DNA of 64,000 nucleotides, from NCBI GenBank assembly GCA_016936575.1, contig JAFGXQ010000045.1, positions 70,664-134,663 on the forward strand, read 5' to 3'. The DNA is from Deltaproteobacteria bacterium. Lineage in GTDB: Bacteria; Myxococcota_A; Polyangia; JAAYKL01. The notes beneath the pieces were generated by a model, which saw only the letters and a list, made by a program, of their open reading frames with translations, was not told the DNA's origin and made no database searches. Position numbers and translations under genes: made by a program. Numbering within the stretch: the first letter of the stretch is position 1; each line of letters begins with the position of its first letter. This document shows positions 16,109-63,327 of this stretch, one piece after another.

Positions 16109-16141
16109 GCGGGTTCCTTTATCGTTCAGCAAATCCGCGAC

Positions 16142-17308: not shown

Positions 17309-17347
17309 TTTCGTCTCCTTTATCGAAGCGCGCAGAGCGCTGCTTGA

Positions 17348-18766: not shown

Positions 18767-18787
18767 TTAAAATTCGTTTTGCCTCTA

Positions 18788-20560: not shown

Positions 20561-20653
20561 TCGTCTATTCCTTTCTACGTTCCTCCAAGCCTTCCAGATT
20601 TCGGTTGGAGAAATGCGATAGTTTCTTATTAATTGTATGACACGTTTTCGAAT

Positions 20654-21484: not shown

Positions 21485-21519
21485 TCTCCTTTTTATAAAA
21501 GCACTTTAAAACAAGTGGT

Positions 21520-23841: not shown

Positions 23842-23854
23842 TTTATTCTCTTCC

Positions 23855-25402: not shown

Positions 25403-25403
25403 G

Positions 25404-26873: not shown

Positions 26874-26922
26874 CTGAAACTGTCGATGCGGCCGATAGAA
26901 CACAGTCACCCCTTTGCCTCTC

Positions 26923-27918: not shown

Positions 27919-27955
27919 GTGAAATACATGCTTACAGATTCGCACAAGGGTCATC

Positions 27956-28756: not shown

Positions 28757-28789
28757 GTTACTTTTTCCTCCATTTGTTCTTCGCCGGTT

Positions 28790-29812: not shown

Positions 29813-30023
29813 TGAATTGTTCCTGTATGTGTTTCCAGAAATCGTCCATGCAAGACAGCTCAGCATGTAAAGCCGTCTTAATCGAAGATTTAAACAATGG
29901 TGCGAACGAAGCGAGGAAAGGGGTTGATATAAATGAACCTTTTTTACTTATTCTTTTTACAGAGGAAAATGATTGCAGCTTATTTGAAAAATTTCGTTCA
30001 TCTCAAATCATTTCAACATTCTG

Positions 30024-41369: not shown

Positions 41370-41373
41370 CGGC

Positions 41374-43539: not shown

Positions 43540-45646
43540 GGACGCCTCCATTCTCGTCAGCGGCCCCTTCTCCGCAAATCCTGTGTACCAGTTGCGACAA
43601 CAGTTCATAATGATCCGACCCCAAATAAATGAAGTGCTTCATTCCCGCGTCGCGTAACGCCGACTCCAACGCCCCGGGGCGGCCGGCCAACACCAACTCC
43701 GCGTTGCTTTTCTTTTTCAACTCGGTGGCCAGCAAAACAGCCGATTCGGCATAGGCTTCGTCAGTCGAACATAATACAAACACATGCGCCGTCATCGATA
43801 CGGCGGCATCCACCAGAGCAGATACCTCGTCGCAAGCGGCCGATTCAATTATCCTGAACCCGGCGGCATTGAAAAACGACCTCGAAAAATCCGTCCGCGG
43901 CTTGCTCTGCCGCAGTGTTCCCAGGCGCAACAATCCGACAGTGCAAGGCTCCAGCGATGTCTCCGCAAAGATTCGAACCCGACGGCGAAGCTGTTCATAG
44001 GCATACGTCAGTCTCCGCTTCGGAATCGGAGACACCTTTACCGGTTCCCCTTGCTTCACCGCGTGGTTTACTTCACTAAAAATTGCCCCGGATTGAAGCG
44101 CATTAACCGCAACCGCAATTACATTGTCATCATCGAGGGACAATCCAATCGAATGGCTCTGCCGAACAGAACCATCAACCTTCGCCCGCGCTGCATCTCG
44201 GGCAGGGACCTTCTCATATGCATTATCCGCCGCATCAAACGCCACAAAATCATTTACACCGATCATTTTTCGCTTTCGACGATTCAACGCTGACTGCTGA
44301 GTATTCCATGTCTCAGCGATTGCTGCCTGAACATATTCATTTTTCAGCGCGGCAACGATGCCGCCTTCTTTATCAATTTGCCCCACGCGGCGCCATGCGG
44401 CTTCCGCGATGGCATCTGTCAGGTACTCCACATAATAACTTCCACCACATGGGTCTGCCACATCGCCGAGCTTGCACTCCTGCTGCAGTACTACCTGAGT
44501 ATTTCGCGCAATCCGCTGCGCGAAAGCCCCACCGCCGAACCAGGATTCATCAAACGGTGCGGTATGCACACTTCTCGCGCCGCCCAACGCACCGCTCATG
44601 GTTGCGGTTATGCCCCTCAACGTATTTATCAACGGTTCATCCACCGAAGCATAAAAACGCGATGTACGCGCACGAATAACAATGTCATCCGGAACCTCTC
44701 CCCCCAACGATTTCACCAGCCCGGCGAATAACAGCCTCAATGCCCGTTGTTTGGCAATGTCTTCAAAGAAATCGCCTCCCACCGACAACTGAAACACCAT
44801 CTGGCCAGCAGCAGCATTCAATGAAATTCCACGCTCCGACAACGCTGCCAGATAGGCCGCGGCTTCACTAAGGCAGCATGCCAGTTCCATAGAAGCGCTG
44901 CTTCCACCTGCCTGATATACGGTGCCGTCGATTAGAATCACGCGGAGCCGTGGTGTCACTTCTTCTGCCCAGCGAATCAATACCGCGGTCTCATCGAACA
45001 GCGCGGTTTCGTCACACGGCACAGTTCCCGTCGCAGCCAATTGACTCAAGGGCGAAAACCCGAGTCCACCAGCCAGTTCGCCTGGTTCGCGCTGATGCAT
45101 AAGACAAACCGCGTGCAACAGAGAGGCGGCAGCGATTCCCGCACTTTGACAATACAACCGAATCGGCAAATTAAATAATTCTGCCGGCAGCGCTTCAGCC
45201 ATATCGCTGACAGTTTGAATGGAAACACCGACATCAGCAGTCTGGTCGGACACATCAACTCCGGCTGCCGACGATTGCTCCAACACCAATTGAATTTCAG
45301 TCAATCCAACAGCCAAATCTTTTTTTACCTGAGCCGCAAACGACGCGGGCGAGGCACATTGGTAGACCTGACCGATGTGCCAGTGCTCATGCTCAGCCTG
45401 ACCGTGTCTTCGTCCCGTACGCACAACAGAAGGGGCCGTCTGTTCAACCGCCTGATTTTCTTCAGTAAATATTGAATCCAGCGTTATTCCATCGAGATTG
45501 GTCCGTACAAGTAATTTATCGTATGGAGCCCCTTTCAGACCCTTTGTTACGGCGTCTTTCCATTCTGAGAAAGTCGACCTGGCAAAAGAGGTTATATTTG
45601 GTTCGGTTTCATTTTCTGCAATTGGTTTTAAATGTTTCAGTGTCAT
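43532..45646 (-). CDS. mutA: Methylmalonyl-CoA mutase small (beta) subunit
   Basis: Mutase fold with [44 protein letters not shown], but no DxHxxG in the C-terminal Rossmann-like domain. Immediately upstream of mutB. Confidence 0.75.
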
Positions 45647-45820
45647 CGTTCTTTCTTCTATCGAAAAACAGAAAAATTGGAACTCACATAACACCTATTC
45701 CGCGCTGTGTTGTCAATTCTACAATGATGTGCTATTCGAGTTTTTATGAAGTTTTTTAATTTGACTGCACATAAAAAACGCCTACGTTAATGGGTAAATG
45801 ACTTTCAATGGAGCGAGAAT

Positions 45821-47201: not shown

Positions 47202-49667
47202 CTATTTGATACCCAGTCGAATCTCCTGTATCGCACTTTTCAACATGGCCCGCTCCTGTGACGTGGCCGCAGTCATCAGCGCATGTTCCAACACCGGCAA
47301 CGAGGCTGTCGAATCTCGTTGAACCAGTCCGGAAATCGCTAAAAACCGCACATGCATATTTCTATCATTAATAATTCGTGTCTCCAGCGCAACACGCGCG
47401 CGATCGTCCATAATCGGAATCAATTCCTTCACCGCCTTATATCGGACCGTCGCACTTTTCGAATTTGTATAAAAAACCAAATCCTCGACGGTGGTTTTCG
47501 CAACCGACATCGGCACAGTGTATGTGCTTTCCTCTGCGCCCGCGACGCCCGGTTGTGCCTCCGCGCCCGCATGTTGCGACTGTTTCACCGTGGACTTTTC
47601 ACTTATGCGTTCAGCCTGTGTAGCTGCCAATCGTTCCTGCTCAGCAGCGGCACGTTCCTCCCGCTCTCGGCGTTTGGCTTCTTGGGCTTCTTCTCGGGCG
47701 AGGCGCTTGGCCTCCTCAGCCTCTTCACGTGCGATTCGCTTGGCTTCTATCTCTTCTTCCTTTTTCAGCCGCGCCAACTCTTTCTCTCTCTCCCGCTCCT
47801 GACGCGCCAGTTCCTGCTCCGCTTTCTTACGTTCTTTTTCTGCACGGCGCTCTTCCTCTTCGGCTTTCCGTTTCTCTATGGCCGCACGCTTTTGTTCCTC
47901 GCGTTCAAGCCGCTTCTGCTCCGCGAGCGCTTTTTTCTCTTCAGCTTTTCTTCTGGCGTCTTCAGCCTTCTGACGTTTTTCCTCTTCCCGCTGTGCTTTC
48001 AATTCCGCCAGGCGTTGTTTTTCTGCTTCCTTCTTCGCCAGTGCCGCCAGCCGCTGTTCTTCTTTCAGTCGTTCCCTCGCCTCTTGGGCCTTCTGTCTCT
48101 CTGCGGCAGCAACCGCTCGCTCCTCTTCAGCCTTTTTATGTGCGTCTTCGGCAGCGATGCGTTGTTCCTCTTCCAGTCGCTCTTTTTCAGCCAGTTTTTT
48201 GGCTTTGTCCGCCCTTCGCGCGGCTTCCGTCTCTTTCCTTCTGGCTTCTTCCTCTTGTCGCTGCATTTCTTTTTCGCGCGCCGCCGCTTCCGTTGCCAAT
48301 CGGCGCTCTTCAGCTTTCTGTTTTAACTCTTCTTCGCGTTTCGCGTTCGCCTCATCTCGTTTTCGCTTTTCTTCTTCACGCTTCGCTGCGAGCGCCGCTT
48401 TGCGTTCTTCGTCTTCACGCCGCTTTTCTTCAAGCGCGGCCTGTCTTTGTGCGTCCTGTTCCTTTTTTAATGCAAGCTTACGTTCCTTCGCCTCCTCGAC
48501 TTTCCGCATTGCCTCTTCCTGAGCAAAACGTTTCTTTTCAGCACGTTCCTTCTTGGCGGCTTCCAACGCAGCACGCTTTTCTGCAAGTTCCTGTTTTCGT
48601 TTTTCCGCAGCGGCTTCACGCGCCGCAGCGCGCTCTTGACGTTCCGCCTCCCTAGCGAGTTTTCGCTCTTCAGCTTCCTTCTCGCGCTGCTCTTTTTCCA
48701 ACCGTCGTTTTTCAGCTGCCTCGAACGCCGCCTGTTCTTTTTCAGCCTTTTTCTTTTCGGCCTCGGTCATCTCCACCGCAACAGGCTCTTCGATTTGCCC
48801 CGTGTCCGCTTCTGCAACTTTTTGTCCCTCATCCGTCTCGTTCTCCGACGTCCCGTTTTGTTTCGCTTCCTGCTCCTCCTTCATCGAAGGAGGTAGTTCA
48901 TCGGCTTCCTCTTCTCCCCTTCGCTCCGCAAAAATTTCGTCGGCAAGACTCTTATCGGTAACAACATCTTCACCTTTTAAAATAGATTTAATCCGATCTG
49001 TCTCCGCAACGATTCGATACGCCATATCACGGGTGATCTCAGTACCGCCGACGGCCATATATTCCTTGTATTTTTTATACGCCCAATCCCACTGTTTCGC
49101 CTTTGACGCACAAAGCGCCGACTCCAATAACAACGTATAATCCTGATTGTACTGATAGGCTGTATCGTAACTCTTGTACGCGGTTACATAGTCTTCTATT
49201 TCAATGGCTTCTTCCGCTTCAATCACCGCCACCGTTGAGCGAAGCCACTGGCCCGCCACGCTTGCGCCGACGACATCTCCGTCAGCGGCATCAATTCGTT
49301 CGATTTCCCCGCGCAGCGATTCAGTCTGCGTCTTGTCCAGCTTCTTGGAATCCACCAATGCCTGGTACCGCTTTCTGGCTTCTTTGTAGTCTTTGGCTAA
49401 AAACGCAAAATGAGCCAATGCGATTTCATACTTGATGAGAGGCTCTTTCTGACTGGCCGCGGTTACTTCAGCGACCGCACCGTCAAAGTCACGCGCCTGC
49501 GCCTTCTCGAGCCCCAAACGCCAATGGGCAGTTGCGGACATTGTGGAGTCCACCGATTGAACCGGAACATTCTGTTTGGAGCATCCCCATACGAAGAAAC
49601 ATACACACACAACAAATATCAACCGTACATTTGATTTCTCGCGCAATCCCATTTTGGACTCCTTCAC
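47202..49667 (-). CDS. Secreted TPR protein with a ~400-aa E/K/R/A-rich charged coiled-coil (TolA-domain-II-like) and C-terminal HEAT/PBS-lyase-like repeats
   Basis: Signal peptide plus lipobox-like VWGCSK and N-terminal TPR-like helices. A long run of AEKRRLEKEQREKEAEERKLAREAERQ... follows. The C-terminus is VRFLAISGLVQRDSTASLPVLEHAL. The repetitive coding generates many shadow ORFs (47352..48326, 47729..48655, etc.). Confidence 0.55.
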   Translation of the reverse strand: MKESKMGLREKSNVRLIFVVCVCFFVWGCSKQNVPVQSVDSTMSATAHWRLGLEKAQARDFDGAVAEVTAASQKEPLIKYEIALAHFAFLAKDYKEARKRYQALVDSKKLDKTQTESLRGEIERIDAADGDVVGASVAGQWLRSTVAVIEAEEAIEIEDYVTAYKSYDTAYQYNQDYTLLLESALCASKAKQWDWAYKKYKEYMAVGGTEITRDMAYRIVAETDRIKSILKGEDVVTDKSLADEIFAERRGEEEADELPPSMKEEQEAKQNGTSENETDEGQKVAEADTGQIEEPVAVEMTEAEKKKAEKEQAAFEAAEKRRLEKEQREKEAEERKLAREAERQERAAAREAAAEKRKQELAEKRAALEAAKKERAEKKRFAQEEAMRKVEEAKERKLALKKEQDAQRQAALEEKRREDEERKAALAAKREEEKRKRDEANAKREEELKQKAEERRLATEAAAREKEMQRQEEEARRKETEAARRADKAKKLAEKERLEEEQRIAAEDAHKKAEEERAVAAAERQKAQEARERLKEEQRLAALAKKEAEKQRLAELKAQREEEKRQKAEDARRKAEEKKALAEQKRLEREEQKRAAIEKRKAEEEERRAEKERKKAEQELARQEREREKELARLKKEEEIEAKRIAREEAEEAKRLAREEAQEAKRREREERAAAEQERLAATQAERISEKSTVKQSQHAGAEAQPGVAGAEESTYTVPMSVAKTTVEDLVFYTNSKSATVRYKAVKELIPIMDDRARVALETRIINDRNMHVRFLAISGLVQRDSTASLPVLEHALMTAATSQERAMLKSAIQEIRLGIK

Positions 49668-50252: not shown

Positions 50253-52109
50253 TTACTGCATGTTAGCGTGTACCGTCGAATCCATGACCGGTTCTAATTG
50301 ATAGTCGAACAACACCGGTTTTCTTCCGTCGCTCTTGATGGTTTCGCTGACTGTCGCCAAAATCGCCTGGTGCGACTCTGTTGCTTTCCCCGAGTCAATC
50401 AGTGCCGCAACCTCAGATACCCGAGCACCGTAAATGGATGTCAACAGCACCTGCAGATAGGATTGTACCGAATTGAAAAACGGTACCGGATAAAACGCCA
50501 GTTGTTTGGCTTGGGCATTATAAACCATCCCGTGTCCGGCGAAACCGATTTCGAGTAACTTCTTGCATACCTGCTGTTCCTCCTTATTCGATGAAGCTGT
50601 GCCGCTTAGCCACCGCGCTGCCAATGCAATCCCCCGTTCTGAGACTCCCGCATCATCAATTCGTCCCATCTCCCGCTCCATAGACACAATCCATGCCGTC
50701 GTCACCTGCACAAGAATCGAAATCAACTGCGACCATTGCTTTCGATACAACTGTTTCAAACCAATCTGCTTGCCATTCTCTGTGTCAATCACTGTCCACT
50801 CCGCAGGCAACAGTGATGATGCCAGCTCTTGCGACACTCGATTCAACAGCGCCGAATCCACACTCAGCACCACTAGGGGCATCACCGTATTCAGGGAACG
50901 GGCATCCTCCTCCAACTGTGCACTAAAACGGTTCAAATCAACAATGACCTTTTCAGCAGGCAGATGCCCCACAGAGTGAATATGCCGAACAGCCGACAAG
51001 TCGCTGAAGCGAGCATGCCCCGCCGCAATCCAAGTATCTCGAACTTCAATCGACGGAATCATCGGTTTTCCCTTGTTCAGTGGCATATTTTCCGAATGCA
51101 TCGCAGTCAGCGAATCGTACAGCTCCTCGTAATGTGCCGTAAACCAATCGGTGAATTCATTCGCGGGAAGATACGGTCTGGCCAGTTGAAACTCAAACGC
51201 TTGCTTCACACCGTAGACATCAAGATCCGTCTCGAACGCACCGAAAAGAATCCGCCACGGACCGGCCTTCCCGTCCAACACCCGCTGGTCAATACCGAAC
51301 GTGTCGATATTTCCCTCCCCGGTAATTTGAGAAAGAACCGACAGAAGTTCTCGATCCGTTCGCGCAACCATAGACGCCGCATCTGAAAAAAGCCGTGACA
51401 ACGCTGCGAAGAATTCCTTGAATCTAGGATGTGCAACGTATGAAGAAACCGTCAGTCTGCCGTTGTCTCGTTCAACCAATCCGAACGGGCTGAGCAGCTC
51501 CTTTGAATTGATCAGAGTAGACAGGTTTTCAAATTCCCGCGACGTGAAGTCCATGGGCCAAAATATCGTCCCGGTATTTCGGGGTGGAATCGAGGCGACA
51601 GCATTGCATTGAAGCGCTTTAGAGAACCGACACCATGGCCCGGCATATCGATCAAATATCGCCCGCTCTACCGGTTCACCGGATTTCCGCAGTTGTTCTT
51701 CCCATATCAGATTGGAACTGTTTACCTGAAGTTTATAGATGTCGTCCACTACCTTTGCCGCCTGCTGCATGACCTGCAACAGCGGTTGCGCGGACGCAAC
51801 TGTCTCGAGAGAATGTGTGATGGTGCGAACATCCGCCGATTCAAGTTCGTGCTGCAGCATTTGAAAGCGCTCCCGGGACTGCTCAGTATCCAGGGCTATA
51901 TTCTCTCGCGCAGAATCAATATTTTTTTTTGTTGAAGGCGACGCTTGAAACAAAGTGTCATCCTCAACCAAACGACGCGGTTCCGTTTTTCCCGGCACCG
52001 CATCGGGAATTCTCTCCTCTGCGAAAAAATTGCAGCTGCTCAACGCAACAACAATAAGCAATGAAAAAAACAAGAGCGCGTTCGATTTCAATCGGCCTGG
52101 ATACATCAT
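50253..52109 (-). CDS. Large lipoprotein of unknown function (~620 aa)
   Basis: ORF track gives 50253..52208; start preferred at MMYPGRLKSNALLFFSLLIVVALSSCNF (lipobox LSSC). No recognisable catalytic motif. Confidence 0.4.
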   Translation of the reverse strand: MMYPGRLKSNALLFFSLLIVVALSSCNFFAEERIPDAVPGKTEPRRLVEDDTLFQASPSTKKNIDSARENIALDTEQSRERFQMLQHELESADVRTITHSLETVASAQPLLQVMQQAAKVVDDIYKLQVNSSNLIWEEQLRKSGEPVERAIFDRYAGPWCRFSKALQCNAVASIPPRNTGTIFWPMDFTSREFENLSTLINSKELLSPFGLVERDNGRLTVSSYVAHPRFKEFFAALSRLFSDAASMVARTDRELLSVLSQITGEGNIDTFGIDQRVLDGKAGPWRILFGAFETDLDVYGVKQAFEFQLARPYLPANEFTDWFTAHYEELYDSLTAMHSENMPLNKGKPMIPSIEVRDTWIAAGHARFSDLSAVRHIHSVGHLPAEKVIVDLNRFSAQLEEDARSLNTVMPLVVLSVDSALLNRVSQELASSLLPAEWTVIDTENGKQIGLKQLYRKQWSQLISILVQVTTAWIVSMEREMGRIDDAGVSERGIALAARWLSGTASSNKEEQQVCKKLLEIGFAGHGMVYNAQAKQLAFYPVPFFNSVQSYLQVLLTSIYGARVSEVAALIDSGKATESHQAILATVSETIKSDGRKPVLFDYQLEPVMDSTVHANMQ

Positions 52110-52394
52110 CTTGGACAGCATGACAAACTTGAGAATAAAAAACAAAAAAAGGGAGTGCGAATCACCAACGCAAACCAAAGTGAACCGCACTCCCGGAACT
52201 GGGCACATCGCGTAGGATAAAGGAGGAGACCACGCGATACATAAAATATAGCACCCCCGATTTCACTTGCCAGCGGCTCCCTGGCGTTTTGTATTCGCTC
52301 CCGCTTTTTCATCGTGTAGGTAACGAAAATGTCAACATAATTCAGAAAACAGAAAATAATCCAGGCGTAATACACGACCGCCTGCAGGTATGCG

Positions 52395-53150
52395 CTAAAG
52401 CAAAAACGGTATGACCGCTTTGCGTTCAGCGGGGTATTCGGGGAATGTATTTTTGTACCACTTATGATTGGAGATTGCGCGAGGGATCAGGTTCGCTGCG
52501 GTGAACACGGCGAATGCCGCACCCGCCGGGCTCCAGGTAAGAATGGCGAAGCCGCACCATTCCACCAACTCTCCGAAATACGCAGGCATCGAAACGAATC
52601 GAAACAATCCGCCGTAAGGTATTTTGTAGCCGGACTCTCCCGGCGCACGTAGCCGAATCAGAATATTGTCGCTCTGACGATTGATGAACATCCCAACAAA
52701 AAAAATTGCCGTGCCGACTATAAACGGAATACTGTACAGCCAACTGATGTCACGTACCGGCCCCACAAAAAAAAGCCACGCACCGTTCAGAAATCCATTC
52801 CATACATTAAAAAACATGGCCATCGCCACGACGGAAACCGGCATCTTTCGGTTGTTTCCTTTTCGCTTAAACGGAAACACGTAGGTGCGATACATATAAT
52901 GCGTTTGCCAAATCAGCAAACAAACCACCACCGTCACATTGTTGAGCCTATCGCTGAACAGATACATCAGCGTGATGGTCAGCACCGCCGGCGACTCCAT
53001 GACCACCCACCCCACCGTGCTTGAAATCAGCGGTCCCCACCCGTTTCTCGAAAACCTCCCATACGGTGCGGTGACAAACCGCAGCATGATTGCCACCAAT
53101 GCCGCAATACCCAGCAGCGACCACAACAAGACCGTGAACAGCTGTTCCAT
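52395..53150 (-). CDS. Steroid 5-alpha-reductase family membrane oxidoreductase (3-oxo-5-alpha-steroid 4-dehydrogenase C-terminal-domain family)
   Basis: The C-terminus IPYGGLFRFVSMPAYFGELVEWCGFAI...NHKWYKNTFPEYPAERKAVIPFLL parallels human SRD5A (IPRGGLFEYVSGANFLGEIIEWIGYAL...YPKSRKALIPFIF). Multi-TM. Start preferred at MEQLFTV. A hairpin plus T-run overlaps the stop. Confidence 0.8.
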   Translation of the reverse strand: MEQLFTVLLWSLLGIAALVAIMLRFVTAPYGRFSRNGWGPLISSTVGWVVMESPAVLTITLMYLFSDRLNNVTVVVCLLIWQTHYMYRTYVFPFKRKGNNRKMPVSVVAMAMFFNVWNGFLNGAWLFFVGPVRDISWLYSIPFIVGTAIFFVGMFINRQSDNILIRLRAPGESGYKIPYGGLFRFVSMPAYFGELVEWCGFAILTWSPAGAAFAVFTAANLIPRAISNHKWYKNTFPEYPAERKAVIPFLL

Positions 53151-53154
53151 CAAG

Positions 53155-54135
53155 TTATCCTTTCTGCGACCGATGCCACGCCACCGTATCGGCAATCGTC
53201 TCTTCAAACGCCCTCGGCGTGATTCCTAACATCGTTTTCATTTTGTCGCTAGACAGGTTACCGTGCGTATGCAATGCGCGAACGGACTCCCGGGTAAAAA
53301 CCGGCGTTCTGCCCATCAGATTCGCAAAACCTTCATAAACCGGCGCAGTGAGGCGTGCCAGCCACAATGGACACACAAACCACGGCACCGGCACTTGGGA
53401 AACGGCGCAAACCGCAGCGGCAAATTGCGACACACTGCGATAATGCCCTCCGACAATAAATACACTTCCGGTTTCAGCCACATCGACCGCACGAAGCATT
53501 ACCCGCGCAACGTCGCGGACATCCACCCAGTTGGAACCGCCTGCAACCAACGCTCCCATACGACGTGACATCAACTGCCGGACCACACCTCCGAGCGACG
53601 ATGGCTTGTGATCTGACGGCCCCACAACTCCGGTCGGACACACCACCACTGCATGCGTCCCCTCTGATGCGGCCTGCAGGATGATTTTCTGAGCCGCCGC
53701 TTTGCTGCGATCGTACATGGGAGCACGGGAATCTGAGACGAGCGGAGACAACTCATTCAACACCTCATCCTGAGTGTCTGCGAACGCGTGAATCGTGCTG
53801 CAATAAACCAGCTTCAGCTGTTTATGCGATCGGCACGCATCCACCACGGTCCGGGTTCCCTCCACATTCACCCGCCACATCCGCGCTGTGTCATTTTCCT
53901 GTAGAGGTAACACGCCCGCCAAATGAAACACGGCGTCGGAACCGGAAAATGCCTCGATTAGAAAATCAACGTCCAGAATGTCTCCATATTTCACCTGAAT
54001 GGGCAATGCAGATACATACGGTGTTTCTTTGCGCAACAGGGCGACGACTTCCCAATTGTTATCGAGTAAATGCCGAATCAGATTGATTCCGATATGGCCG
54101 GCCGCACCGGTGACTACCGCTTTCATGCCTGCCAT
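53155..54135 (-). CDS. NAD(P)-dependent epimerase/dehydratase-family SDR (3beta-hydroxysteroid dehydrogenase / dihydroflavonol-reductase-like)
   Basis: Rossmann GxxGxxG (VVTGAAGHIGINLIRHLL) and catalytic YDRSK (YxxxK). 326 aa. 4 nt from the 5-alpha-reductase gene. Confidence 0.75.
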   Translation of the reverse strand: MAGMKAVVTGAAGHIGINLIRHLLDNNWEVVALLRKETPYVSALPIQVKYGDILDVDFLIEAFSGSDAVFHLAGVLPLQENDTARMWRVNVEGTRTVVDACRSHKQLKLVYCSTIHAFADTQDEVLNELSPLVSDSRAPMYDRSKAAAQKIILQAASEGTHAVVVCPTGVVGPSDHKPSSLGGVVRQLMSRRMGALVAGGSNWVDVRDVARVMLRAVDVAETGSVFIVGGHYRSVSQFAAAVCAVSQVPVPWFVCPLWLARLTAPVYEGFANLMGRTPVFTRESVRALHTHGNLSSDKMKTMLGITPRAFEETIADTVAWHRSQKG

Positions 54136-54369
54136 TGTAGAGGGAAACCCGATAAGAGGGCAAAAAAAAATCCTCCAAAGTGCCGTAGGTTAAGCGGTGA
54201 CCCGCTGACGCTGCAAGTGGGTTCCATATCGCTGCTTAAGGCTTCCAATCGAATGGCTTGCACACCGCAACGAGAGCTGAATCCCTATTTTCTGGTACAG
54301 CTGGGTCACATATCGCAGCGTTACGTACACTTCAGAGGACTCACACTATAAATTTGGCCACAGAATCGG

Positions 54370-58195: not shown

Positions 58196-58924
58196 TCAGA
58201 TACCTGAACCGTCGGTGAAATTCATGCCGCAATAGGCAGGGCCGGTTCGTTCTCCCTCGCGTAGATGACGCCAACGCCCCGCGCGAGCATCTTCTCCGGG
58301 CAACACCGGGGTGGTGCAGCAGCCGCATCCGATACTCGGATACCCCAGCGCGTGCAGGGAATGTACAGGTACATGGTGTTTGAGCAGATAGGCATCGATG
58401 TCTTCCTGGCTCCAATCTACAAGAGGGTAAACCGAATACCCTGAAAAGCGCGGATCCTCAGCAACAACCTCGATGCTCCCCCTTGCCTGCCCTTCCGCCC
58501 TGCGAAGTCCCCCCACAACAGCCGTTTTCTTCTGTTGTTTCATGTATCGCAGAAACGGTTTGCCTTTGCGCAAATCGCAGCACACGGGCTGACCCTCACT
58601 GGTCTTGAATAATTTGCAGCGATACTGTTCTTCCTGCTGCTCCGGGGTAAGCGTCGGGTACAATGTGACAATCGGCAGCGCGTAACTTTCAATAAATTGA
58701 TCGCGCAGTAGCAGCGTTTCATGAAAATGATACCCTGTATCTACAAACAGAATTTTATTCTTCAACCCCAATGTATGAAACATATGCATTAAAACCGAAG
58801 CGGTTTTTTGCATACTGGAAAGGAGCACCAGCCCGTCACCGAACTGTTCCACCGCGAACGAAATCCGTCCCGCAGCATCTCGCTCTTCCATCGATGTATT
58901 CATTTGTTTCAGATTCAGCGTCAT
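58196..58924 (-). CDS. cysH: Adenylyl-sulfate (APS/PAPS) reductase, thioredoxin-dependent, with Fe-S Cys motifs
   Basis: N-terminal PAPS-reductase fold (FGDGLVLLSSMQKTASVLMHMFH...FVDTGYHFHETL). A CC pair (PVCCDLRKGKP) plus SIGCGCCT match the CC...CxxC [4Fe-4S] signature of APS reductases. Start preferred at MTLNLKQ. Confidence 0.8.
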   Translation of the reverse strand: MTLNLKQMNTSMEERDAAGRISFAVEQFGDGLVLLSSMQKTASVLMHMFHTLGLKNKILFVDTGYHFHETLLLRDQFIESYALPIVTLYPTLTPEQQEEQYRCKLFKTSEGQPVCCDLRKGKPFLRYMKQQKKTAVVGGLRRAEGQARGSIEVVAEDPRFSGYSVYPLVDWSQEDIDAYLLKHHVPVHSLHALGYPSIGCGCCTTPVLPGEDARAGRWRHLREGERTGPAYCGMNFTDGSGI

Positions 58925-58945
58925 CTGCGTTGTCCAACCATCCAA

Positions 58946-60724
58946 TTACGAATCGAGTTTCACACACCCGATTCGAGAAAGTCGCTTCATGGAAATCGCC
59001 TGTGTCGGGCACACACGGAGACATTTTCCACAGCGAATGCAATCCTGATTATCAATATATATAAAGGTGGTATCTTTTGACAGCTCCGCTTCAAACACTT
59101 TGGTGGGAAACCCGTCGTCATCGCAATAAATCTGTGCCGCCTTTTTGATACACTCCCTTGGCGCCGCCTGGATACACCAATCGCAATGGATACATAAATC
59201 CTGATCGATTTCAAACTTGTACTGACACAGATAACATCTGGTCGCGGCCACTTGCGCAATCTCAGGGGTAAACCCAGTCTCCACCTCTGCCTGGTTTTCA
59301 AATCGCCCCACTACATCAAGCATCGGCATCGGAAGCGCCCACTGGATGTCGTGGTCCCGAAATCGTCCGGTTTCTCCATCACAATCAGTGGTTTCCACCC
59401 GCACCCCCTCCACGTAGCGCGTTTGTCCCATCAGATGCGTGTCCACCACTTGCGCGGTCTTCTTCCCGGATGCCACCGCGGTAATCACGTCGGCACTGGT
59501 TCCCTCAAAATCTCCTGTGGCGAACAAATTCTCCTTCGAAGTACGAATTCCATCGAGTTCAATACCGTTTGGCAAAATGCGTGGATCGGACCGCTGCCCA
59601 ATAGCCAGAATCAACACGTCACAAGGAATCTCAACTTCGCTTTCATTCAGAGTTTCGATTGCCGGCTTGCGACGAGTATCGCCCGCCTTCACCACGTTGC
59701 GCTCACAAACGAGTATTCCTCGGGAACCGTCTGTTTTCCATCGTTTGGGAGACAGCAGCGTACGCACAGCCACGTCTTCTTCGCGCATGGCTTTGAATTC
59801 ATTTTTGTCAGCCGCCATGGAAGCTTCTGTCCGCCGATACACAATGGATACCGCGGAATCCGCAGAAACCAAACGCCGTGCGGCGCGGGCACAATCCACT
59901 GCAGTGAACCCGCCGCCGACAACTACCACATTGCCCGACAGCGCGGGCAGTTCCCCCCGATTGTAGCGTTTCATGAAGTCAAGACCGGTAAATCGTTGTG
60001 TCTCATCATCACCCACGCCGTCAATGGTTGTCTGATTACTTAGGGTTGTACCGGTGGCAACAATTACCGCATCGTTCTCTTCAATCAGGATGCTCATTTC
60101 AGACGCGCCGACCGCGCATCCGGTCTGAATGGTCACTCCTCCGTCCTGAATGAGCGCGATTTCCGCAGCTACAATGTCTCGGGGCAATCGAAACGCGGGA
60201 ATCCCGTCCACCAGCATACCCCCGGGAAGGGGTTCCTTCTCCAGTACGGTCACTTGATGTCCCAACCGATTCAACTCCCGCGCCGCAGTGAGTCCGGCGG
60301 GCCCAGCCCCCACGATGGTCACCTTCTTGCCGGAGGGTCCAAAATGGGGCGCCAACGGCGTCTGAGTGTTTGCGATGTGATCCGCCGCATACCGCTTGAG
60401 ATGACAAATCTGAACCGGTCCTTCCACATTCGTCCAATTGTGGCGACACTCGTCTTCACACACCCGTGTACAGATTCGTCCAAGAACACCGGGAAACACG
60501 TTGTCTTCCAGATTGATGCGATACGCCGCGTCATGTTCCCCTCTGGCAATGTGTTCAATGTACCCGGGCACATTGGTTTTGGCCGGGCACGCTTCCTGAC
60601 ACGGTATCGCTTTGCCAATCGTTTTCAAATCAAGCGGGGATGTCCCCACACCGGTCTGCACCGAATTCTCTTTGGGCTTTTGCGCTTTTTGATATTCAAA
60701 TCTCACCGTACACCGCCTTTTCAA
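58946..60724 (-). CDS. GltD-like NAD(P)H-dependent FAD oxidoreductase with extra 2x[4Fe-4S] ferredoxin domain; probable electron-donor subunit for the adjacent sulfite reductase
   Basis: N-terminal Fe-S (CQEACPAKTNVP...GRICTRVCEDEC) as in glutamate synthase small subunit. Two dinucleotide sites (VTIVGAGPAGLTAA, VVVVGGGFTAVDCA). C-terminal CYLCQYKF..CIHCDWC and CIRCGKCLRVCP. It overlaps the sulfite reductase gene by 29 nt. Confidence 0.7.
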   Translation of the reverse strand: MKRRCTVRFEYQKAQKPKENSVQTGVGTSPLDLKTIGKAIPCQEACPAKTNVPGYIEHIARGEHDAAYRINLEDNVFPGVLGRICTRVCEDECRHNWTNVEGPVQICHLKRYAADHIANTQTPLAPHFGPSGKKVTIVGAGPAGLTAARELNRLGHQVTVLEKEPLPGGMLVDGIPAFRLPRDIVAAEIALIQDGGVTIQTGCAVGASEMSILIEENDAVIVATGTTLSNQTTIDGVGDDETQRFTGLDFMKRYNRGELPALSGNVVVVGGGFTAVDCARAARRLVSADSAVSIVYRRTEASMAADKNEFKAMREEDVAVRTLLSPKRWKTDGSRGILVCERNVVKAGDTRRKPAIETLNESEVEIPCDVLILAIGQRSDPRILPNGIELDGIRTSKENLFATGDFEGTSADVITAVASGKKTAQVVDTHLMGQTRYVEGVRVETTDCDGETGRFRDHDIQWALPMPMLDVVGRFENQAEVETGFTPEIAQVAATRCYLCQYKFEIDQDLCIHCDWCIQAAPRECIKKAAQIYCDDDGFPTKVFEAELSKDTTFIYIDNQDCIRCGKCLRVCPTQAISMKRLSRIGCVKLDS

Positions 60725-62276
60725 AATAACCGAGCCCCACCCGATTCACACAGTCGGTCAAAAATTCATCAGATATGCGTACCGCGACAAACGCATTCAG
60801 CACCAATCGCAGCATCTCCTCGCAATCACTCAATTTAAATTCTCCCAACTTCTGTCCAAAGGCAGTCTGCGAACCGCCGAGCAGAACTTCGTACCCTTCC
60901 ACAGAACCGGACTCTTCCCGAATGCGCATGCCCCGAAAGCCGATATCGGCAATACGGTAAGGTGAACACGAGTTGGGGCAACCGGTGATATTGATGACAC
61001 CGCTTTGCGCAATCGATTCATATCGAGGCTCTCCGACCACGCGCTGCACAATATCAAACAATGCCCGCGTCTGAGTGACCGCCTTGGGGCAATACGTGGT
61101 CCCCACACAACTGACAATATCACTGAGAGTGAAGCTGCCGGACGTTTGATACCCCAATGCACGGATTTCGCTCTCCAACGCTTTCACATCGCTCGGCGCA
61201 ACCCCCTGAAACTGCAGATTCTGCCGATTAGATGTGTATACCCGCTGATTGGCATATCGCTCCGACAACTCGGCCATCCGGTAAAATGTCGAAAAAGAAA
61301 GCTCCCCTTTGGGAACAATCACCCGCACCGTGTGCTGTCCATCTGTCCCTTGTGGGGAATCGTCGAGAAGCGGCCGCAGTGAGAACGGAACGCCTTCATC
61401 TGTGACTGGTTCAACGATGATATCATCCGAGGACACATTTTCTGTATGCAGATTACTTATTACTTCCGTTCGGCAGAAATCGATGCCCTTGCGATGCACC
61501 ACAAATTTCAGACGCGACTTGGCGCGATTGAACCGATCTCCATGCTCTCGAAACAGTATCGCCACCGCACGACACACCTGTTTTACTTTGTTGTGCGGCA
61601 CGAAACCGAACAGTGATTCGGCCACGAACGGCTTCCACCCCATACCGCCGCCGATAACCACCTTATACCCCGGAACACCGTTGTGAATGACACCGGAAAG
61701 CCCCACACAGTTGATATGGGGTTGGGCGCAATCGGCACCACACCCCGAAAAATTTATTTTAAACTTTCGAGGCAGATCATCCAGGTCGCGGCACATACCC
61801 AAAAACTCAGCCATCTCAACCGCCGCAGCGCGGGCATCCAATCGTCGGTACGCGCAAGTTTCCGCCAATGGGCACGCGGTCACGTTGCGAGTCACATCGC
61901 CGCAACCGTGTTTGGTCGAGTTCCCGTATTCACCCAGCTCCCGAAGCATGTCTGCCAGGTTTCCCACCTTCAGCCAATGAAACTGCAGCGCCTGCCGTGT
62001 GGTCACATTCACAATACCCTGCCCGTATTTCTCGGCAATTCCGGCGATATTCTTGGCCTGGGCACTGGTAATCACGCCTCCGGGAATCACAATTCGCGCC
62101 ATATGATTTCCCGGCTGTCTGCTTTTGTAAATACCGTACCACTTTGCAATACTGCTGTCGTCCGCCTGCATGGCCCCTTTTTTGGCCATCTCATCAAAAT
62201 CCAGGAAGAGGCCGGCGGCCTTGATATCTTCGTCTTCACTACGACGAGTGAACGTCAGTTTTTTAGGCATTGCCAC
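60696..62276 (-). CDS. Sulfite (or nitrite) reductase hemoprotein, siroheme/[4Fe-4S] (NirA/CysI family)
   Basis: Duplicated NIR/SIR modules with cluster Cys in TKHGCGDVTRNVTACP and ...GCPNSCSPYRIADIGF. 526 aa. In an operon with cysH, cysK and cobA. Confidence 0.8.
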   Translation of the reverse strand: MAMPKKLTFTRRSEDEDIKAAGLFLDFDEMAKKGAMQADDSSIAKWYGIYKSRQPGNHMARIVIPGGVITSAQAKNIAGIAEKYGQGIVNVTTRQALQFHWLKVGNLADMLRELGEYGNSTKHGCGDVTRNVTACPLAETCAYRRLDARAAAVEMAEFLGMCRDLDDLPRKFKINFSGCGADCAQPHINCVGLSGVIHNGVPGYKVVIGGGMGWKPFVAESLFGFVPHNKVKQVCRAVAILFREHGDRFNRAKSRLKFVVHRKGIDFCRTEVISNLHTENVSSDDIIVEPVTDEGVPFSLRPLLDDSPQGTDGQHTVRVIVPKGELSFSTFYRMAELSERYANQRVYTSNRQNLQFQGVAPSDVKALESEIRALGYQTSGSFTLSDIVSCVGTTYCPKAVTQTRALFDIVQRVVGEPRYESIAQSGVINITGCPNSCSPYRIADIGFRGMRIREESGSVEGYEVLLGGSQTAFGQKLGEFKLSDCEEMLRLVLNAFVAVRISDEFLTDCVNRVGLGYFEKAVYGEI

Positions 62277-62282
62277 TCCTCT

Positions 62283-63203
62283 CTAATCCTCATAAAACAA
62301 CAACGTGGACGTATACCGTTCAGCGGTATCAGGAAGAACCACCGCAATTTGTCTGCCTCGGTTCTCCGGACGCGCGGCAATACGATACGCCGCCGCCATC
62401 GCCGCGCCGGAAGAGATGCCCACAAGCAGGCATTCATCGCGCGCCAGCTGCTTGGCGGTTTCTATCGCATCGGCACTGGAAACCGGAATCACTACATCAA
62501 TCACAGCGGTGTCCAACGTTTTGGGAATAAAGCCGGCGCCGATTCCCTGAATCATATGCGGGCCTGCGGGCTCTCCGGACAATACGGCAGATTCGGCGGG
62601 CTCAACCGCCACCACATGAACATCGGCGTTTTTTTCCTTCAGATACTTTCCCGCTCCTGATATGGTTCCACCGGTTCCCACGCCGGCGACAAAAATGTCC
62701 ACCTGACCGCTCAATGCGTCCCATATTTCGGGGCCGGTGTTCCGATAATGCACATCGGGATTGGCGGGGTTCTCGAACTGTCGCGGCATGAAAGCCCCCA
62801 GTTCGCTGCAAAGCGATTCCGCCTCTGAAATGGCTCCCCGCATTCCGTCCCGACCTTCGGTCAGCACCAATTTCGCTCCCAGTGCACGCAGCAGCTTTCT
62901 GCGCTCAATACTCATCGATTCAGGCATCACCAAAACCACCGGATATCCCCGTTGTCTTCCTACTACAGCCAATCCAATACCGGTATTTCCCGATGTGGGT
63001 TCCACAATCGTCATTCCGGCGGCCAATGATCCGTCCTGTTCGGCCGCATCAATCATCGACAGCGCAATACGATCTTTTACCGATGAGCCGGGATTGCTGC
63101 ATTCCAACTTTCCAAAAATCGCGCACGGTGACGCATTCCGGGAAATCGGTACCAGCGGTGTGTTTCCGATCAGAGATAATATCGGGCGAGGTGCGCGTTC
63201 CAT
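62283..63203 (-). CDS. cysK: Cysteine synthase (O-acetylserine sulfhydrylase, PLP-dependent)
   Basis: IGNTPLV, PLP-lysine context SNPGSSVKDRIA, glycine loop VAGVGTGGTISG, SSGAA. Start preferred at MERAPRP. Confidence 0.85.
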   Translation of the reverse strand: MERAPRPILSLIGNTPLVPISRNASPCAIFGKLECSNPGSSVKDRIALSMIDAAEQDGSLAAGMTIVEPTSGNTGIGLAVVGRQRGYPVVLVMPESMSIERRKLLRALGAKLVLTEGRDGMRGAISEAESLCSELGAFMPRQFENPANPDVHYRNTGPEIWDALSGQVDIFVAGVGTGGTISGAGKYLKEKNADVHVVAVEPAESAVLSGEPAGPHMIQGIGAGFIPKTLDTAVIDVVIPVSSADAIETAKQLARDECLLVGISSGAAMAAAYRIAARPENRGRQIAVVLPDTAERYTSTLLFYED

Positions 63204-63327
63204 CTTTTCTCCTGTCTTTATATATACCGACAGCTGTGGAACTGACGGCATCGAACAGTGGAATACTGGTACTCATATACTTTAATAAAACAGAATGCAA
63301 TTGAATGTTTTTTTTTTCAGGGTCTGC

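What the first reader, a model, noticed from the sequence alone, without database searches (positions are those of the whole stretch)
52395..54135. Steroid 5-alpha-reductase homologue co-transcribed with a 3beta-HSD-like SDR in a bacterium
The C-terminus of the 270-aa membrane protein is strikingly similar to eukaryotic SRD5A (…YP..RKA(V/L)IPF…). The start lies 4 nt after the stop of a 3beta-hydroxysteroid-dehydrogenase/epimerase-family SDR. Such pairs point to reduction or isomerisation of a sterol, hopanoid or polyprenol-like lipid, which fits the lipid-modifying theme of the window.
Basis: partly seen in the sequence, partly recalled or inferred. Interest (0 to 1): 0.55.

Follow-up and report, generated by a model that had tools for sequence, protein, structure and literature searches.

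The report
Conserved steroid 5α-reductase plus SDR cassette
This uncultured bacterium carries a true homologue of the animal steroid 5α-reductase, translationally coupled to a dedicated partner dehydrogenase. The same two-gene cassette recurs across many bacterial and archaeal phyla, so it is a good candidate for how microbes saturate sterol-like lipids.

Summary
The membrane protein is 251 aa (ATG at 53150; the 270-aa form is a TTG-extended ORF). It begins 4 nt after the stop of a 326-aa extended SDR.

- **SRD5A-like protein:** It is an SRD5A1/2-type enzyme, not a methyltransferase. It scores PF02544 at 2e-53 and is 45% identical to the crystallised progesterone 5α-reductase PbSRD5A. Its model superposes on 7C83 at TM 0.94. 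The catalytic Glu and Tyr and most NADPH contacts are kept.
- **SDR partner:** It is nearest to SdmB/HpnA and to DFR/CCR-type NADPH reductases, but below every curated cut-off.
- **Conserved cassette:** The pair recurs in 41 of 80 species-level loci that hold an SRD5A homologue, across about ten phyla including archaea. Six of six close SDR homologues checked have the reductase immediately downstream. No third gene recurs.
- **Window context:** No triterpenoid or polyprenol genes lie in the window, so the "lipid theme" link is unsupported.

Most likely function: NADPH-dependent saturation of a 3-oxo-Δ4 steroid-type enone, followed by or combined with C3 keto/hydroxyl conversion, probably on scavenged sterols. 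The closest known system is the gut Bacteroidota 5AR–5BR–3β-HSDH cluster, which has a different SDR partner and an extra gene. I rate this a new variant of a known kind, of moderate interest. A 6S RNA gene lies directly upstream.

The parts
52395..53150 (-). SRD5A1/2-type membrane reductase (3-oxo-5alpha-steroid 4-dehydrogenase family), 251 aa, seven predicted TM helices
   Evidence: PF02544 scores 180.9 bits, E 2e-53. It is 45% identical to PbSRD5A over 245 aa, with 7c83 at E 2.8e-68 and 7bw1 at 2.9e-36. The AF2 model has pLDDT 88.9, and Foldseek gives TM 0.94 to 7c83 and 0.88 to 7bw1. Catalytic E52 and Y85 are invariant in the family.
53151..53164 (-). Gene junction: GAAAGGA Shine-Dalgarno-like motif at the 3' end of the SDR gene, TAA stop, 4-nt spacer before the reductase ATG (translational coupling)
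   Evidence: Read directly from the sequence. Relatives have 4-nt overlaps or gaps under 10 nt at the same junction.
53155..54135 (-). Extended SDR (NAD(P)-dependent epimerase/dehydratase / 3beta-HSD fold), 326 aa (possibly 323 from the Met at residue 4), dedicated partner of the reductase
   Evidence: PF01370 2.2e-32 and PF01073 2.7e-25. NCBIfam HpnA 202.7 bits and SdmB 165.5 bits, both below cut-off. It has the TGxxGxxG motif, S113/Y141/K145, and basic residues at the end of beta2. AF2 pLDDT is 92.8, and the best PDB fold is 3wj7 at TM 0.85.
54168..54341 (-). 6S (SsrS) RNA gene directly upstream on the same strand. A T9 run follows it, and only 32 nt separate its 3' end from the SDR ATG. It may be the start of the transcription unit (inferred, not shown).
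   Evidence: Rfam RF00013 at 84.4 bits, E 3.4e-15, full-length model; sequence. The syntenic relative L003 has 6S directly upstream of its reductase gene.

Best explanation
This is a self-contained two-gene cassette that saturates and re-functionalises the A-ring of a 3-oxo-delta4 steroid-type lipid without oxygen.

Step 1 (inferred from a 45%-identical enzyme of proven activity): the 7-TM SRD5A-like protein binds NADPH on its cytoplasmic side. E52 and Y85 polarise the substrate's C3 carbonyl. A hydride then goes to C5 and a proton to C4, giving the 5alpha-saturated 3-ketone.

Step 2 (inferred): the soluble extended SDR, probably NADPH-preferring, converts the 3-ketone to a 3-hydroxyl. It may also run the opposite reaction on a 3beta-hydroxy-delta5 sterol to create the enone, as DHRSX does around SRD5A3. 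The net result would be stenone or stenol to 5alpha-stanol.

The cassette occurs in many lineages that are not known to make sterols, and its flanks are never conserved. The substrate is therefore most likely a scavenged, eukaryote-derived sterol, steroid or bile-acid-like compound rather than a product of the host.

Shown here: gene identity, coupling, conservation of the catalytic residues, and conservation of the pair. Inferred: substrate class, direction of the SDR reaction, and physiological role.
For: **Family and fold**
- PF02544 scores E 2e-53.
- The protein matches PbSRD5A over its full length (E 2.8e-68) and human SRD5A2 (2.9e-36), but TECR only at 3.5e-10.
- The model superposes on 7c83 at TM 0.94, rmsd 1.8 A.

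**Chemistry**
- E57 and Y91 equivalents are invariant in 203 close homologues.
- NADPH contacts N160, D164, R171, E197, R227 and Y235 are kept.
- PbSRD5A reduces progesterone with NADPH, and E57/Y91 mutants are dead (PMC7815742).

**Partner**
- Full-length SDR homologues lie within 300 nt in 41 of 80 species-level loci; 38 of these are immediately upstream on the same strand.
- Six of six close SDR homologues on long contigs have a PF02544 gene immediately downstream, three with a 4-nt overlap.
- Pairwise distances of the two proteins correlate (Mantel r 0.66, 0 of 2000 permutations reach it).
- No other neighbour recurs.

**SDR type**
- All 39 partner SDRs hit SdmB and HpnA best. The profile also hits NSDHL (5e-28) and the NADPH-dependent CCR, DFR and kavalactone reductases.
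- The residue at the end of beta2 is H or R, not acidic.

**Precedents**
- Gut Bacteroidota 5AR reduces 3-oxo-delta4-LCA, and an adjacent 3beta-HSDH then reduces the 3-ketone (bioRxiv 10.1101/2021.01.08.425963).
- SRD5A-family enzymes need a conjugated carbonyl that an SDR makes and removes (PMC11250103).
Against: - No activity was measured, and no steroid-related gene lies nearby.
- The Gln of the published Q-E-Y motif is Met here (M51). Q56A/L kills human SRD5A2. However, Met is the majority state in the prokaryotic family (198 of 203 close homologues; 113 M against 26 Q in 150 representatives, interspersed).
- The NADPH-contact Asn (N193 in the human enzyme) is Ala here, a rare state (5 of 203).
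- The SDR falls below the cut-offs of every curated family, and its nearest structure, 3wj7, has no known function.
- About half of the homologues lack the SDR next door, including the syntenic sister MAG.
- An SRD5A3-like role was not excluded by phylogeny.
Confidence: 0.6

Rival explanations
1. Polyprenal or isoprenoid-enal reductase system, a prokaryotic analogue of DHRSX-SRD5A3. The SDR would oxidise a polyprenol or other allylic alcohol to the enal, the membrane enzyme would saturate the alpha double bond, and the SDR would reduce the aldehyde. The product would be dolichol-like or otherwise alpha-saturated isoprenoid lipids.
For: The same two-enzyme logic is proven in eukaryotes (PMC11250103). 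The cassette occurs in archaea (Thermoplasmatota, Thalassarchaeaceae) and in many phyla that all make polyprenols but not sterols. The Met replacing Gln at the carbonyl pocket could reflect a different carbonyl substrate.
Against: The protein is full-length SRD5A1/2-like: 40% identical to human SRD5A2 and 45% to PbSRD5A, which reduces progesterone. The partner is an extended SDR nearest to sterol- and triterpenoid-associated SdmB, HpnA and NSDHL. That is inferred to differ from DHRSX, which by my recollection (not checked) is a classical SDR. The cassette is patchy, present in about half of carriers and absent from the sister MAG, which is unlike a housekeeping glycan-carrier pathway.
Confidence: 0.15
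2. A late step of an endogenous sterol or other triterpenoid biosynthetic pathway of the host, for example stanol formation or C-4 demethylation-type ketoreduction as with SdmB, or hopanoid modification as with HpnA.
For: The best NCBIfam hits of the SDR are HpnA and SdmB. Several carriers are Myxococcota, for example Minicystis rosea and Polyangium fumosum, a group known to include sterol producers (own knowledge).
Against: All scores are far below the curated cut-offs (202.7 vs 367.65; 165.5 vs 600). No cyclase, Rieske SdmA-like or hpn gene turned up among the 42 window ORFs scanned, and none recurs beside the cassette in 80 loci. Most carriers are not sterol-producing groups: Dehalococcoidales, Anaerolineales, Bacteroidales, Marinimicrobia and archaea. 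Hopanoids have no 3-oxo-delta4 system (established chemistry).
Confidence: 0.08
3. Reduction of some other non-isoprenoid alpha,beta-unsaturated carbonyl lipid, such as a long-chain enone, an olefin- or ketone-lipid intermediate as with OleD, or a polyketide. The SDR would act as ketoreductase.
For: The SDR also hits OleD-type 2-alkyl-3-oxoalkanoate reductases (E 1e-25 to 9e-32) and thioester-reductase domains. The family relative TECR reduces enoyl-CoA.
Against: TECR is the most distant of the solved relatives (3.5e-10 against 2.8e-68). No ole, PKS or fatty-acid genes recur next to the cassette. The OleD scores are much weaker than the SdmB and HpnA scores.
Confidence: 0.12
4. The adjacency is incidental, and the two genes are functionally unrelated neighbours downstream of the 6S RNA gene.
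For: The syntenic sister MAG has 6S followed by the reductase with no SDR. About half of all homologues lack an adjacent SDR.
Against: The 4-nt gap carries an internal SD-like motif. The same order and strand occur in 38 loci from about ten phyla. The reverse check gave 6 of 6. Distances of the two proteins are correlated.
Confidence: 0.03

Closest known systems
PbSRD5A (PDB 7C83), bacterial steroid 5alpha-reductase; human SRD5A2 (7BW1)
   Same: Same family, length and 7-TM fold (TM 0.94 and 0.88). Identity is 45% to PbSRD5A and 40% to SRD5A2. The catalytic Glu and Tyr and most NADPH-binding residues are the same. PbSRD5A is nested among the same prokaryotic homologues, at 54-60% identity to several loci, some of which have the SDR partner.
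   Different: The Q of the Q-E-Y motif is Met. The equivalent of N193 is Ala and that of H231 is Asn. The PbSRD5A paper does not discuss genomic context or a partner enzyme (PMC7815742). Substrate is untested here.
Gut Bacteroidota isoalloLCA cluster: 5alpha-reductase, 5beta-reductase and 3beta-HSDH (Bacdor_03091/90/89, Parmer_04016-18)
   Same: An SRD5A homologue is clustered with an SDR that handles the C3 keto/hydroxyl group. The proven sequence is enone to 5alpha-ketone to 3beta-alcohol (PMC10382948; PMC10942478).
   Different: That cluster has three genes, including a BaiCD-like flavoenzyme that is absent here. Its 3beta-HSDH was found by BLASTP with Rumgna_00694, which I take to be a classical SDR. 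Here the partner is a 326-aa extended SDR (adh_short only 16.5 bits). The host and habitat differ, and the cassette spans many phyla. No direct sequence comparison was possible.
DHRSX-SRD5A3 dolichol pathway (eukaryotes)
   Same: An SRD5A-family reductase acts only on a carbonyl-conjugated double bond, and an SDR creates and then removes the carbonyl (PMC11250103). This is the same logic as proposed for the cassette.
   Different: The substrate is polyprenal. The genes are unlinked in eukaryotes. The window protein resembles SRD5A1/2 rather than the longer SRD5A3 (own knowledge of SRD5A3 length; not tested).
IsmA-dependent cholesterol-to-coprostanol conversion (gut Clostridia)
   Same: Anaerobic microbial saturation of sterols through a 3-oxo-delta4 intermediate, with an SDR proposed for the first and last steps (PMC12362056).
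   Different: It yields the 5beta product. IsmA is a classical SDR and the reductase is not an SRD5A-family enzyme. It has been described only in vertebrate gut Clostridia.
SdmB (bacterial C-4 sterol demethylation) and HpnA (hopanoid-associated SDR)
   Same: These are the nearest curated families of the partner SDR, with full-length alignments.
   Different: Scores are well below the equivalog cut-offs. There is no SdmA or hpn context, and the clade is defined instead by linkage to an SRD5A gene.

Membership tests
SRD5A1/2-type steroid 5alpha-reductase (PF02544; PbSRD5A, HsSRD5A2) | Steroid_dh domain above Pfam gathering score | tested here: met
   180.9 bits against 22.6, E 2e-53, profile positions 2-150 of 150
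SRD5A1/2-type steroid 5alpha-reductase (PF02544; PbSRD5A, HsSRD5A2) | Full-length homology to solved SRD5As, closer than to TECR or methyltransferases | tested here: met
   7c83 at 2.8e-68, 7bw1 at 2.9e-36, TECR art-1 at 3.5e-10. PEMT scores 23 bits, below its 25-bit cut-off.
SRD5A1/2-type steroid 5alpha-reductase (PF02544; PbSRD5A, HsSRD5A2) | Seven-TM fold with two short beta hairpin strands | tested here: met
   The AF2 model (pLDDT 88.9) has 7 long helices plus strands at 41-43 and 102-104. Foldseek gives TM 0.94 to 7c83, 0.88 to 7bw1 and 0.33 to ICMT.
SRD5A1/2-type steroid 5alpha-reductase (PF02544; PbSRD5A, HsSRD5A2) | Catalytic Glu and Tyr (E57 and Y91 of HsSRD5A2) | tested here: met
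   E52 and Y85 are invariant in 203 of 203 close homologues and in 150 and 148 of 153 aligned sequences (150 representatives plus window, PbSRD5A and HsSRD5A2).
SRD5A1/2-type steroid 5alpha-reductase (PF02544; PbSRD5A, HsSRD5A2) | Gln of the Q-E-Y signature motif (Q56) | tested here: not met
   The window has M51. Met is found in 198 of 203 close homologues, and 113 M, 26 Q and 7 F are interspersed in 150 representatives. Q56A/L inactivates the human enzyme.
SRD5A1/2-type steroid 5alpha-reductase (PF02544; PbSRD5A, HsSRD5A2) | NADPH-binding residues N160, D164, R171, N193, E197, R227, H231, Y235 | tested here: inconclusive
   Six of eight are identical. N193 is Ala here (rare, 5 of 203). H231 is Asn (common variant, and H231A keeps activity in the human enzyme).
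SRD5A1/2-type steroid 5alpha-reductase (PF02544; PbSRD5A, HsSRD5A2) | NADPH-dependent reduction of a 3-oxo-delta4 steroid | not testable with these tools
   Needs an enzyme assay.
Gut Bacteroidota 5AR-5BR-3betaHSDH bile-acid cluster | Adjacent BaiCD-like flavin 5beta-reductase | tested here: not met
   Neighbours are a 6S RNA, small membrane ORFs, a lipoprotein of unknown function and an Hpt protein. No such family recurs in 80 loci.
Gut Bacteroidota 5AR-5BR-3betaHSDH bile-acid cluster | 3beta-HSDH homologous to Rumgna_00694 / Bacdor_03089 | tested here: inconclusive
   No reference sequence could be obtained. The partner here is an extended SDR with adh_short at 16.5 bits against a 26.6-bit cut-off, so orthology is unlikely.
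3beta-HSD / delta5-delta4 isomerase family (PF01073) | PF01073 above gathering score, with the SDR motifs | tested here: met
   89.4 bits against 22, but only profile positions 1-191 of 280, and weaker than PF01370. G10/G13/G16, S113, Y141 and K145 are conserved.
3beta-HSD / delta5-delta4 isomerase family (PF01073) | NAD+ preference (acidic residue at the end of beta2), as in oxidative 3beta-HSDs | tested here: not met
   Position 35 is R in the window and H or R in 33 of 42 partner SDRs, a DFR/CCR-like pattern. Interpreting this as NADPH preference is an inference.
HpnA (TIGR03466) / SdmB (NF052578) | Score above the curated cut-off | tested here: not met
   202.7 against 367.65 and 165.5 against 600. 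All 39 partner SDRs match both families below cut-off-scale E-values, the best being 1e-74.
HpnA (TIGR03466) / SdmB (NF052578) | Context of hopanoid (SHC, hpn) or SdmA Rieske genes | tested here: not met
   None among the 42 window ORFs scanned, and none recurs as a neighbour. The rest of the genome was not examined.
SRD5A3/DFG10 polyprenal reductase | Orthology to SRD5A3 rather than SRD5A1/2 | not tested
   No SRD5A3 sequence or structure was available in the libraries used. The only indirect evidence is the high full-length similarity to SRD5A2 and PbSRD5A.

The most novel reading that the evidence does not exclude
The extended-SDR and SRD5A cassette is the long-missing genetic basis for microbial hydrogenation of eukaryotic stenols and stenones to 5alpha-stanols in sediments, mats and water columns. 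It would be a portable, oxygen-independent two-enzyme module spread by horizontal transfer across bacteria and archaea. If so, its abundance would shape the stanol/stenol and 5beta/5alpha sterane ratios that geochemists read as biomarkers. It would also let some microbes tailor scavenged sterols for their own membranes.
Probability: 0.3. Interest if true: 0.7.

Novelty: new variant of a known kind. Interest (0 to 1): 0.48.

Why it matters
Bacterial SRD5A homologues are known from one crystal structure and from gut Bacteroidota bile-acid work. Their role outside the gut is unexplained. Here the reductase belongs to a compact operon with a dedicated partner SDR that recurs from Chloroflexota to marine archaea.

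Bacterial conversion of sterols to stanols in sediments has long been observed. The only gene the reviewed work attributes to it is ismA, for the 5beta route in vertebrate guts (PMC12362056). In the two full-text searches I ran for it, no paper linked SRD5A homologues to stanol formation.

The cassette is small and easy to express. That makes the hypothesis directly testable, and it offers a marker gene pair for metagenomic surveys of sterol diagenesis.

Tried and rejected
- **Gut Bacteroides reference sequences:** I could not obtain a 5AR or 3beta-HSDH sequence for direct comparison. A profile search with 13 Bacteroidales homologues returned only environmental MAG proteins in its top 120. The Sato et al. 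paper is not held.
- **Gene fusions:** I looked for SDR-SRD5A fusions among the best 150 representatives. The longer proteins carry unrelated or unannotated extensions (TPR, PCMD), not an SDR.
- **Promoter and terminator scan:** Counts were no higher than in shuffles, and the one promoter-like site near the SDR overlaps its start codon. This was uninformative.
- **Met vs Gln and the SDR partner:** I tested whether Met versus Gln at the Q56 position tracks presence of the SDR. It does not: 42 M-type loci have the SDR and 37 do not.
- **6S RNA linkage:** I checked whether the 6S link is general. It is absent from 9 other Myxococcota-type loci and from L005, so it is lineage-specific.
- **PbSRD5A context:** PbSRD5A is not among the proteins held. 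Its two nearest relatives were uninformative: one sits at a contig edge and the other has no SDR.
- **3WJ7 literature:** The search found nothing relevant.
- **SDR fold search:** It returned only generic extended SDRs and did not narrow the substrate.
- **Methyltransferase reading:** The JGI name "Ste14" for many homologues is rejected on Pfam and fold evidence.
Full report
**Source of the window.** The window is part of contig JAFGTB010000154.1 (277,734 nt) of assembly GCA_016934495.1, a MAG labelled "Deltaproteobacteria bacterium". The two genes of the finding are on the window's minus strand. Its accession block is shared with "Zod_Metabat" MAGs seen. It therefore probably comes from the same environmental project, but that is an inference only.

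**Observation.** ORF listing gives a 326-aa ORF at 53155..54135(-) and a 270-aa ORF at 52395..53207(-) that starts at a TTG inside the first gene.
- The sequence at the junction reads ...cagaaaggaTAActtgATGgaacag... The stop of the first gene is 53157-53155, then 4 nt, then an ATG at 53150. An AGGA lies 7 nt upstream of that ATG.
- Homologues are 251-256 aa and align from residue 1-5 of the ATG form. The public record also calls a 251-aa product.
- The C-terminus is YPAERKAVIPFLL.

**The membrane protein.**
- Pfam gives PF02544 Steroid_dh at 180.9 bits (E 2e-53), DUF1295 weakly, and PEMT below its cut-off.
- Against PDB sequences it matches PbSRD5A (7c83) at 2.8e-68 over residues 9-250. It matches human SRD5A2 (7bw1) at 2.9e-36 and a TECR at only 3.5e-10.
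- BLAST identity is 45% to PbSRD5A and 40% to SRD5A2.
- An AlphaFold model built on 26 homologues (pLDDT 88.9) has seven long helices and the two short strands described for PbSRD5A.
- The model superposes on 7c83 at TM 0.94 (rmsd 1.8 Å) and on 7bw1 at 0.88. The delta14-sterol reductase reaches 0.54 and ICMT 0.33.
The JGI name "Ste14" carried by many homologues is a mis-annotation.

**Catalytic residues.** Han et al. (PMC7815742) showed three relevant things.
- PbSRD5A reduces progesterone with NADPH.
- A Q-E-Y motif (Q56/E57/Y91 in SRD5A2) holds the C3 carbonyl.
- N160, D164, R171, N193, E197, R227, H231 and Y235 bind NADPH.

In the window protein, E52 and Y85 are present. They are invariant in 203 close homologues and nearly so in 150 representatives of 50%-identity clusters. 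Six of the eight NADPH residues are identical.

There are three differences from the published pattern.
- **Q56 is Met.** This is the rule in the prokaryotic family, not an exception (198 of 203). Among 150 representatives there are 113 M, 26 Q and 7 F, interspersed along the ranking. The published "QEY" motif is therefore really [M/Q]-E-Y in prokaryotes.
- **H231 is Asn.** This is a common variant, and the paper notes that H231A keeps activity.
- **N193 is Ala.** This is rare (5 of 203), at a residue that contacts NADPH partly through water.

None of these suggests a pseudogene. Whether they change specificity is unknown.

**The SDR.**
- It is an extended SDR: PF01370 at 2.2e-32 and PF01073 3Beta_HSD at 2.7e-25 over the N-terminal two-thirds.
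- Its best NCBIfam hits are HpnA (202.7 bits, cut-off 367.65) and the sterol demethylase SdmB (165.5 bits, cut-off 600), then OleD-type ketoreductases.
- A profile of 39 partner SDRs hits 3wj7, an uncharacterised Gluconobacter protein (3e-72). Next come cinnamoyl-CoA, kavalactone and dihydroflavonol reductases, and human NSDHL (5e-28). All 39 hit SdmB and HpnA best, none near the cut-offs.
- The family keeps TGxxGxxG, Ser113, Tyr141 and Lys145. It has His or Arg rather than an acidic residue at the end of strand beta2. That is the pattern of NADPH-dependent DFR/CCR-type reductases, which I know from the literature rather than from a test here.
- The model (pLDDT 92.8) finds only generic extended SDRs by fold.
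- I read it as an NADPH-preferring carbonyl reductase of a non-sugar substrate, related to but distinct from the triterpenoid-associated SDRs.

**Is the pair meaningful?**
- A scan of one genome per GTDB species found at least 595 loci with a relative of the reductase, and the best 80 were kept.
- tblastn with the window SDR finds a full-length homologue (29-56% identity) within 300 nt of the reductase in 41 of these 80 loci. In 38 it is immediately upstream on the same strand. Seventy-nine of the 80 have enough upstream sequence to judge.
- Carriers span Myxococcota, Bacteroidota, Chloroflexota, Actinomycetota, Spirochaetota, Marinimicrobia, Dadabacteria, Alphaproteobacteria and two archaeal lineages (Thermoplasmatota and Thalassarchaeaceae).
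- Clustering all flanking ORFs shows no other recurrent neighbour.
- In the reverse direction, six of six close SDR homologues (38-43% identity) on long contigs have a PF02544 gene immediately downstream. Three have a 4-nt overlap, and the flanks are unrelated each time.
- Pairwise distances of the two proteins across 42 cassettes correlate (Mantel r 0.66; 0 of 2000 permutations reach it). Shared species history contributes to that figure.
- The family is large: 6,635 50%-identity clusters at E ≤ 1e-3 and 1,067 at 1e-30.
- No fusions of the two genes were found.

The cassette is therefore a real, portable two-gene unit.

**Local context.**
- The 42 ORFs scanned, most of those of 150 aa or more, gave no cyclase, hpn, SdmA-like or polyprenyl gene.
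- The "lipid" genes lie more than 21 kb from the pair (15.5-31 kb).
- A sister MAG (GCA_016935665.1, locus L003) is syntenic on both sides. It shares the small membrane ORFs and the p196 homologue upstream, and the lipoprotein, Hpt, 800-aa protein, response regulator, kinase and methylmalonyl-CoA mutase downstream. It has the reductase (59% identity) but no SDR.
- Rfam finds a full-length 6S RNA at 54168..54341(-), only 32 nt upstream of the SDR start and followed by a T9 run. L003 has 6S directly upstream of its reductase.
- In this lineage the reductase therefore sits in the slot downstream of ssrS, and the SDR is an insertion or deletion between them.
- The 6S link is not general.
- Co-transcription of the SDR and the reductase is strongly suggested by the junction. 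Where transcription starts, and whether it is read-through from 6S, is unresolved. The pattern scan was uninformative.

**Mechanism.**
- SRD5A-family enzymes reduce a C=C only when it is conjugated to a carbonyl. In eukaryotic dolichol synthesis an SDR (DHRSX) first makes and later removes that carbonyl around SRD5A3 (PMC11250103).
- In gut Bacteroidota a 5alpha-reductase homologous to SRD5A1 converts 3-oxo-delta4-LCA to 3-oxoalloLCA. A clustered 3beta-HSDH then reduces the ketone. Both steps were shown by heterologous expression and by knockout (reviews).
- By analogy, and given 45% identity to a proven progesterone reductase, I propose the following. The window's reductase saturates the delta4 bond of a 3-oxo-delta4 steroid-type substrate with NADPH. 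The SDR then interconverts the C3 ketone and alcohol.
- The chemistry needs no oxygen, which fits anaerobic carriers.
- The patchy, cross-phylum distribution and non-conserved flanks point to an exogenous substrate.
- Rivals are a polyprenal-type substrate, an endogenous triterpenoid pathway and other enone lipids. They are listed with their evidence in the structured fields.

**Comparison with what is known.**
- The reductase is a new member of the bacterial SRD5A family.
- The cassette differs from the gut cluster in three ways. It lacks the flavin 5beta-reductase. It uses an extended rather than (apparently) a classical SDR. It is widespread outside Bacteroidota and the gut.
- In the full-text library I found no description of this operon. 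I also found no link between SRD5A homologues and environmental stanol formation.
- A 2025 review of the coprostane problem attributes coprostanol formation only to ismA, for the 5beta route. It also notes that sediment bacteria convert sterols to stanols.

I therefore rate it a new variant of a known kind, of moderate interest. The attraction is the testable idea that this cassette underlies microbial 5alpha-stanol formation.

Noticed in passing
window 54168..54341 (-): Full-length 6S/SsrS RNA (RF00013, 84.4 bits), directly upstream of and on the same strand as the SDR-reductase pair, followed by a T9 run. The syntenic sister MAG L003 has 6S (9735..9907) directly upstream of its reductase, with no SDR. 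This raises the question of whether the cassette is expressed by read-through from ssrS.
   Followed up: partly
window 15512..31103 (-): A run of minus-strand genes that looks like a lipid or sulfo-lipid export cluster. It holds a chalcone-isomerase-like protein, two arylsulfotransferase-like proteins, a LolA-like protein, an MMPL transporter with a sterol-sensing-domain hit, DUF1302, a FadL/TodX-type outer-membrane channel, a KAS III-like enzyme and a sulfotransferase. It lies more than 21 kb from the finding and is not linked to it in relatives.
   Followed up: no
window 50253..52208 (-): A protein of 618-651 aa with a lipoprotein-like N-terminus (…LSSC…) and no Pfam or NCBIfam hit, 285 nt downstream of the reductase. 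It is conserved at 34% identity in the same position in the sister MAG L003, but absent next to the cassette elsewhere.
   Followed up: partly
window 47202..49667 (-): An 821-aa protein with a very long Glu/Lys/Arg/Ala-rich, coiled-coil-like stretch. It coincides with the strongest AT skew (-0.30) in the window. A 52%-identical homologue lies in L003.
   Followed up: no
window 52395..53150 (-), residue A190: The NADPH-contact Asn (N193 of human SRD5A2, N192 of PbSRD5A) is Ala in this protein. This state occurs in only 5 of 203 close homologues and could mean lowered cofactor affinity.
   Followed up: partly
window 37441..39036 (+): A 531-aa protein with a GILT domain (gamma-interferon-inducible lysosomal thiol reductase, PF03227, 3e-22) plus DsbA/thioredoxin-like domains. 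GILT is mainly known from eukaryotes (own knowledge, not checked here).
   Followed up: no
window 40365..45694 (-) and 58196..63251 (-): Ordinary metabolism flanks the region. One side has methylmalonyl-CoA mutase large and small subunits with the MeaB GTPase. The other has an assimilatory sulfate-reduction set: PAPS reductase, a glutamate-synthase-like Fe-S flavoprotein, sulfite reductase and a PLP cysteine-synthase-like enzyme.
   Followed up: no
L017 539..760 (+): A group II intron domain (RF02005, 139.6 bits) lies about 1 kb upstream of the SDR-reductase cassette in a groundwater 'Deltaproteobacteria' MAG. This is a possible hint of mobility near the cassette.
   Followed up: no
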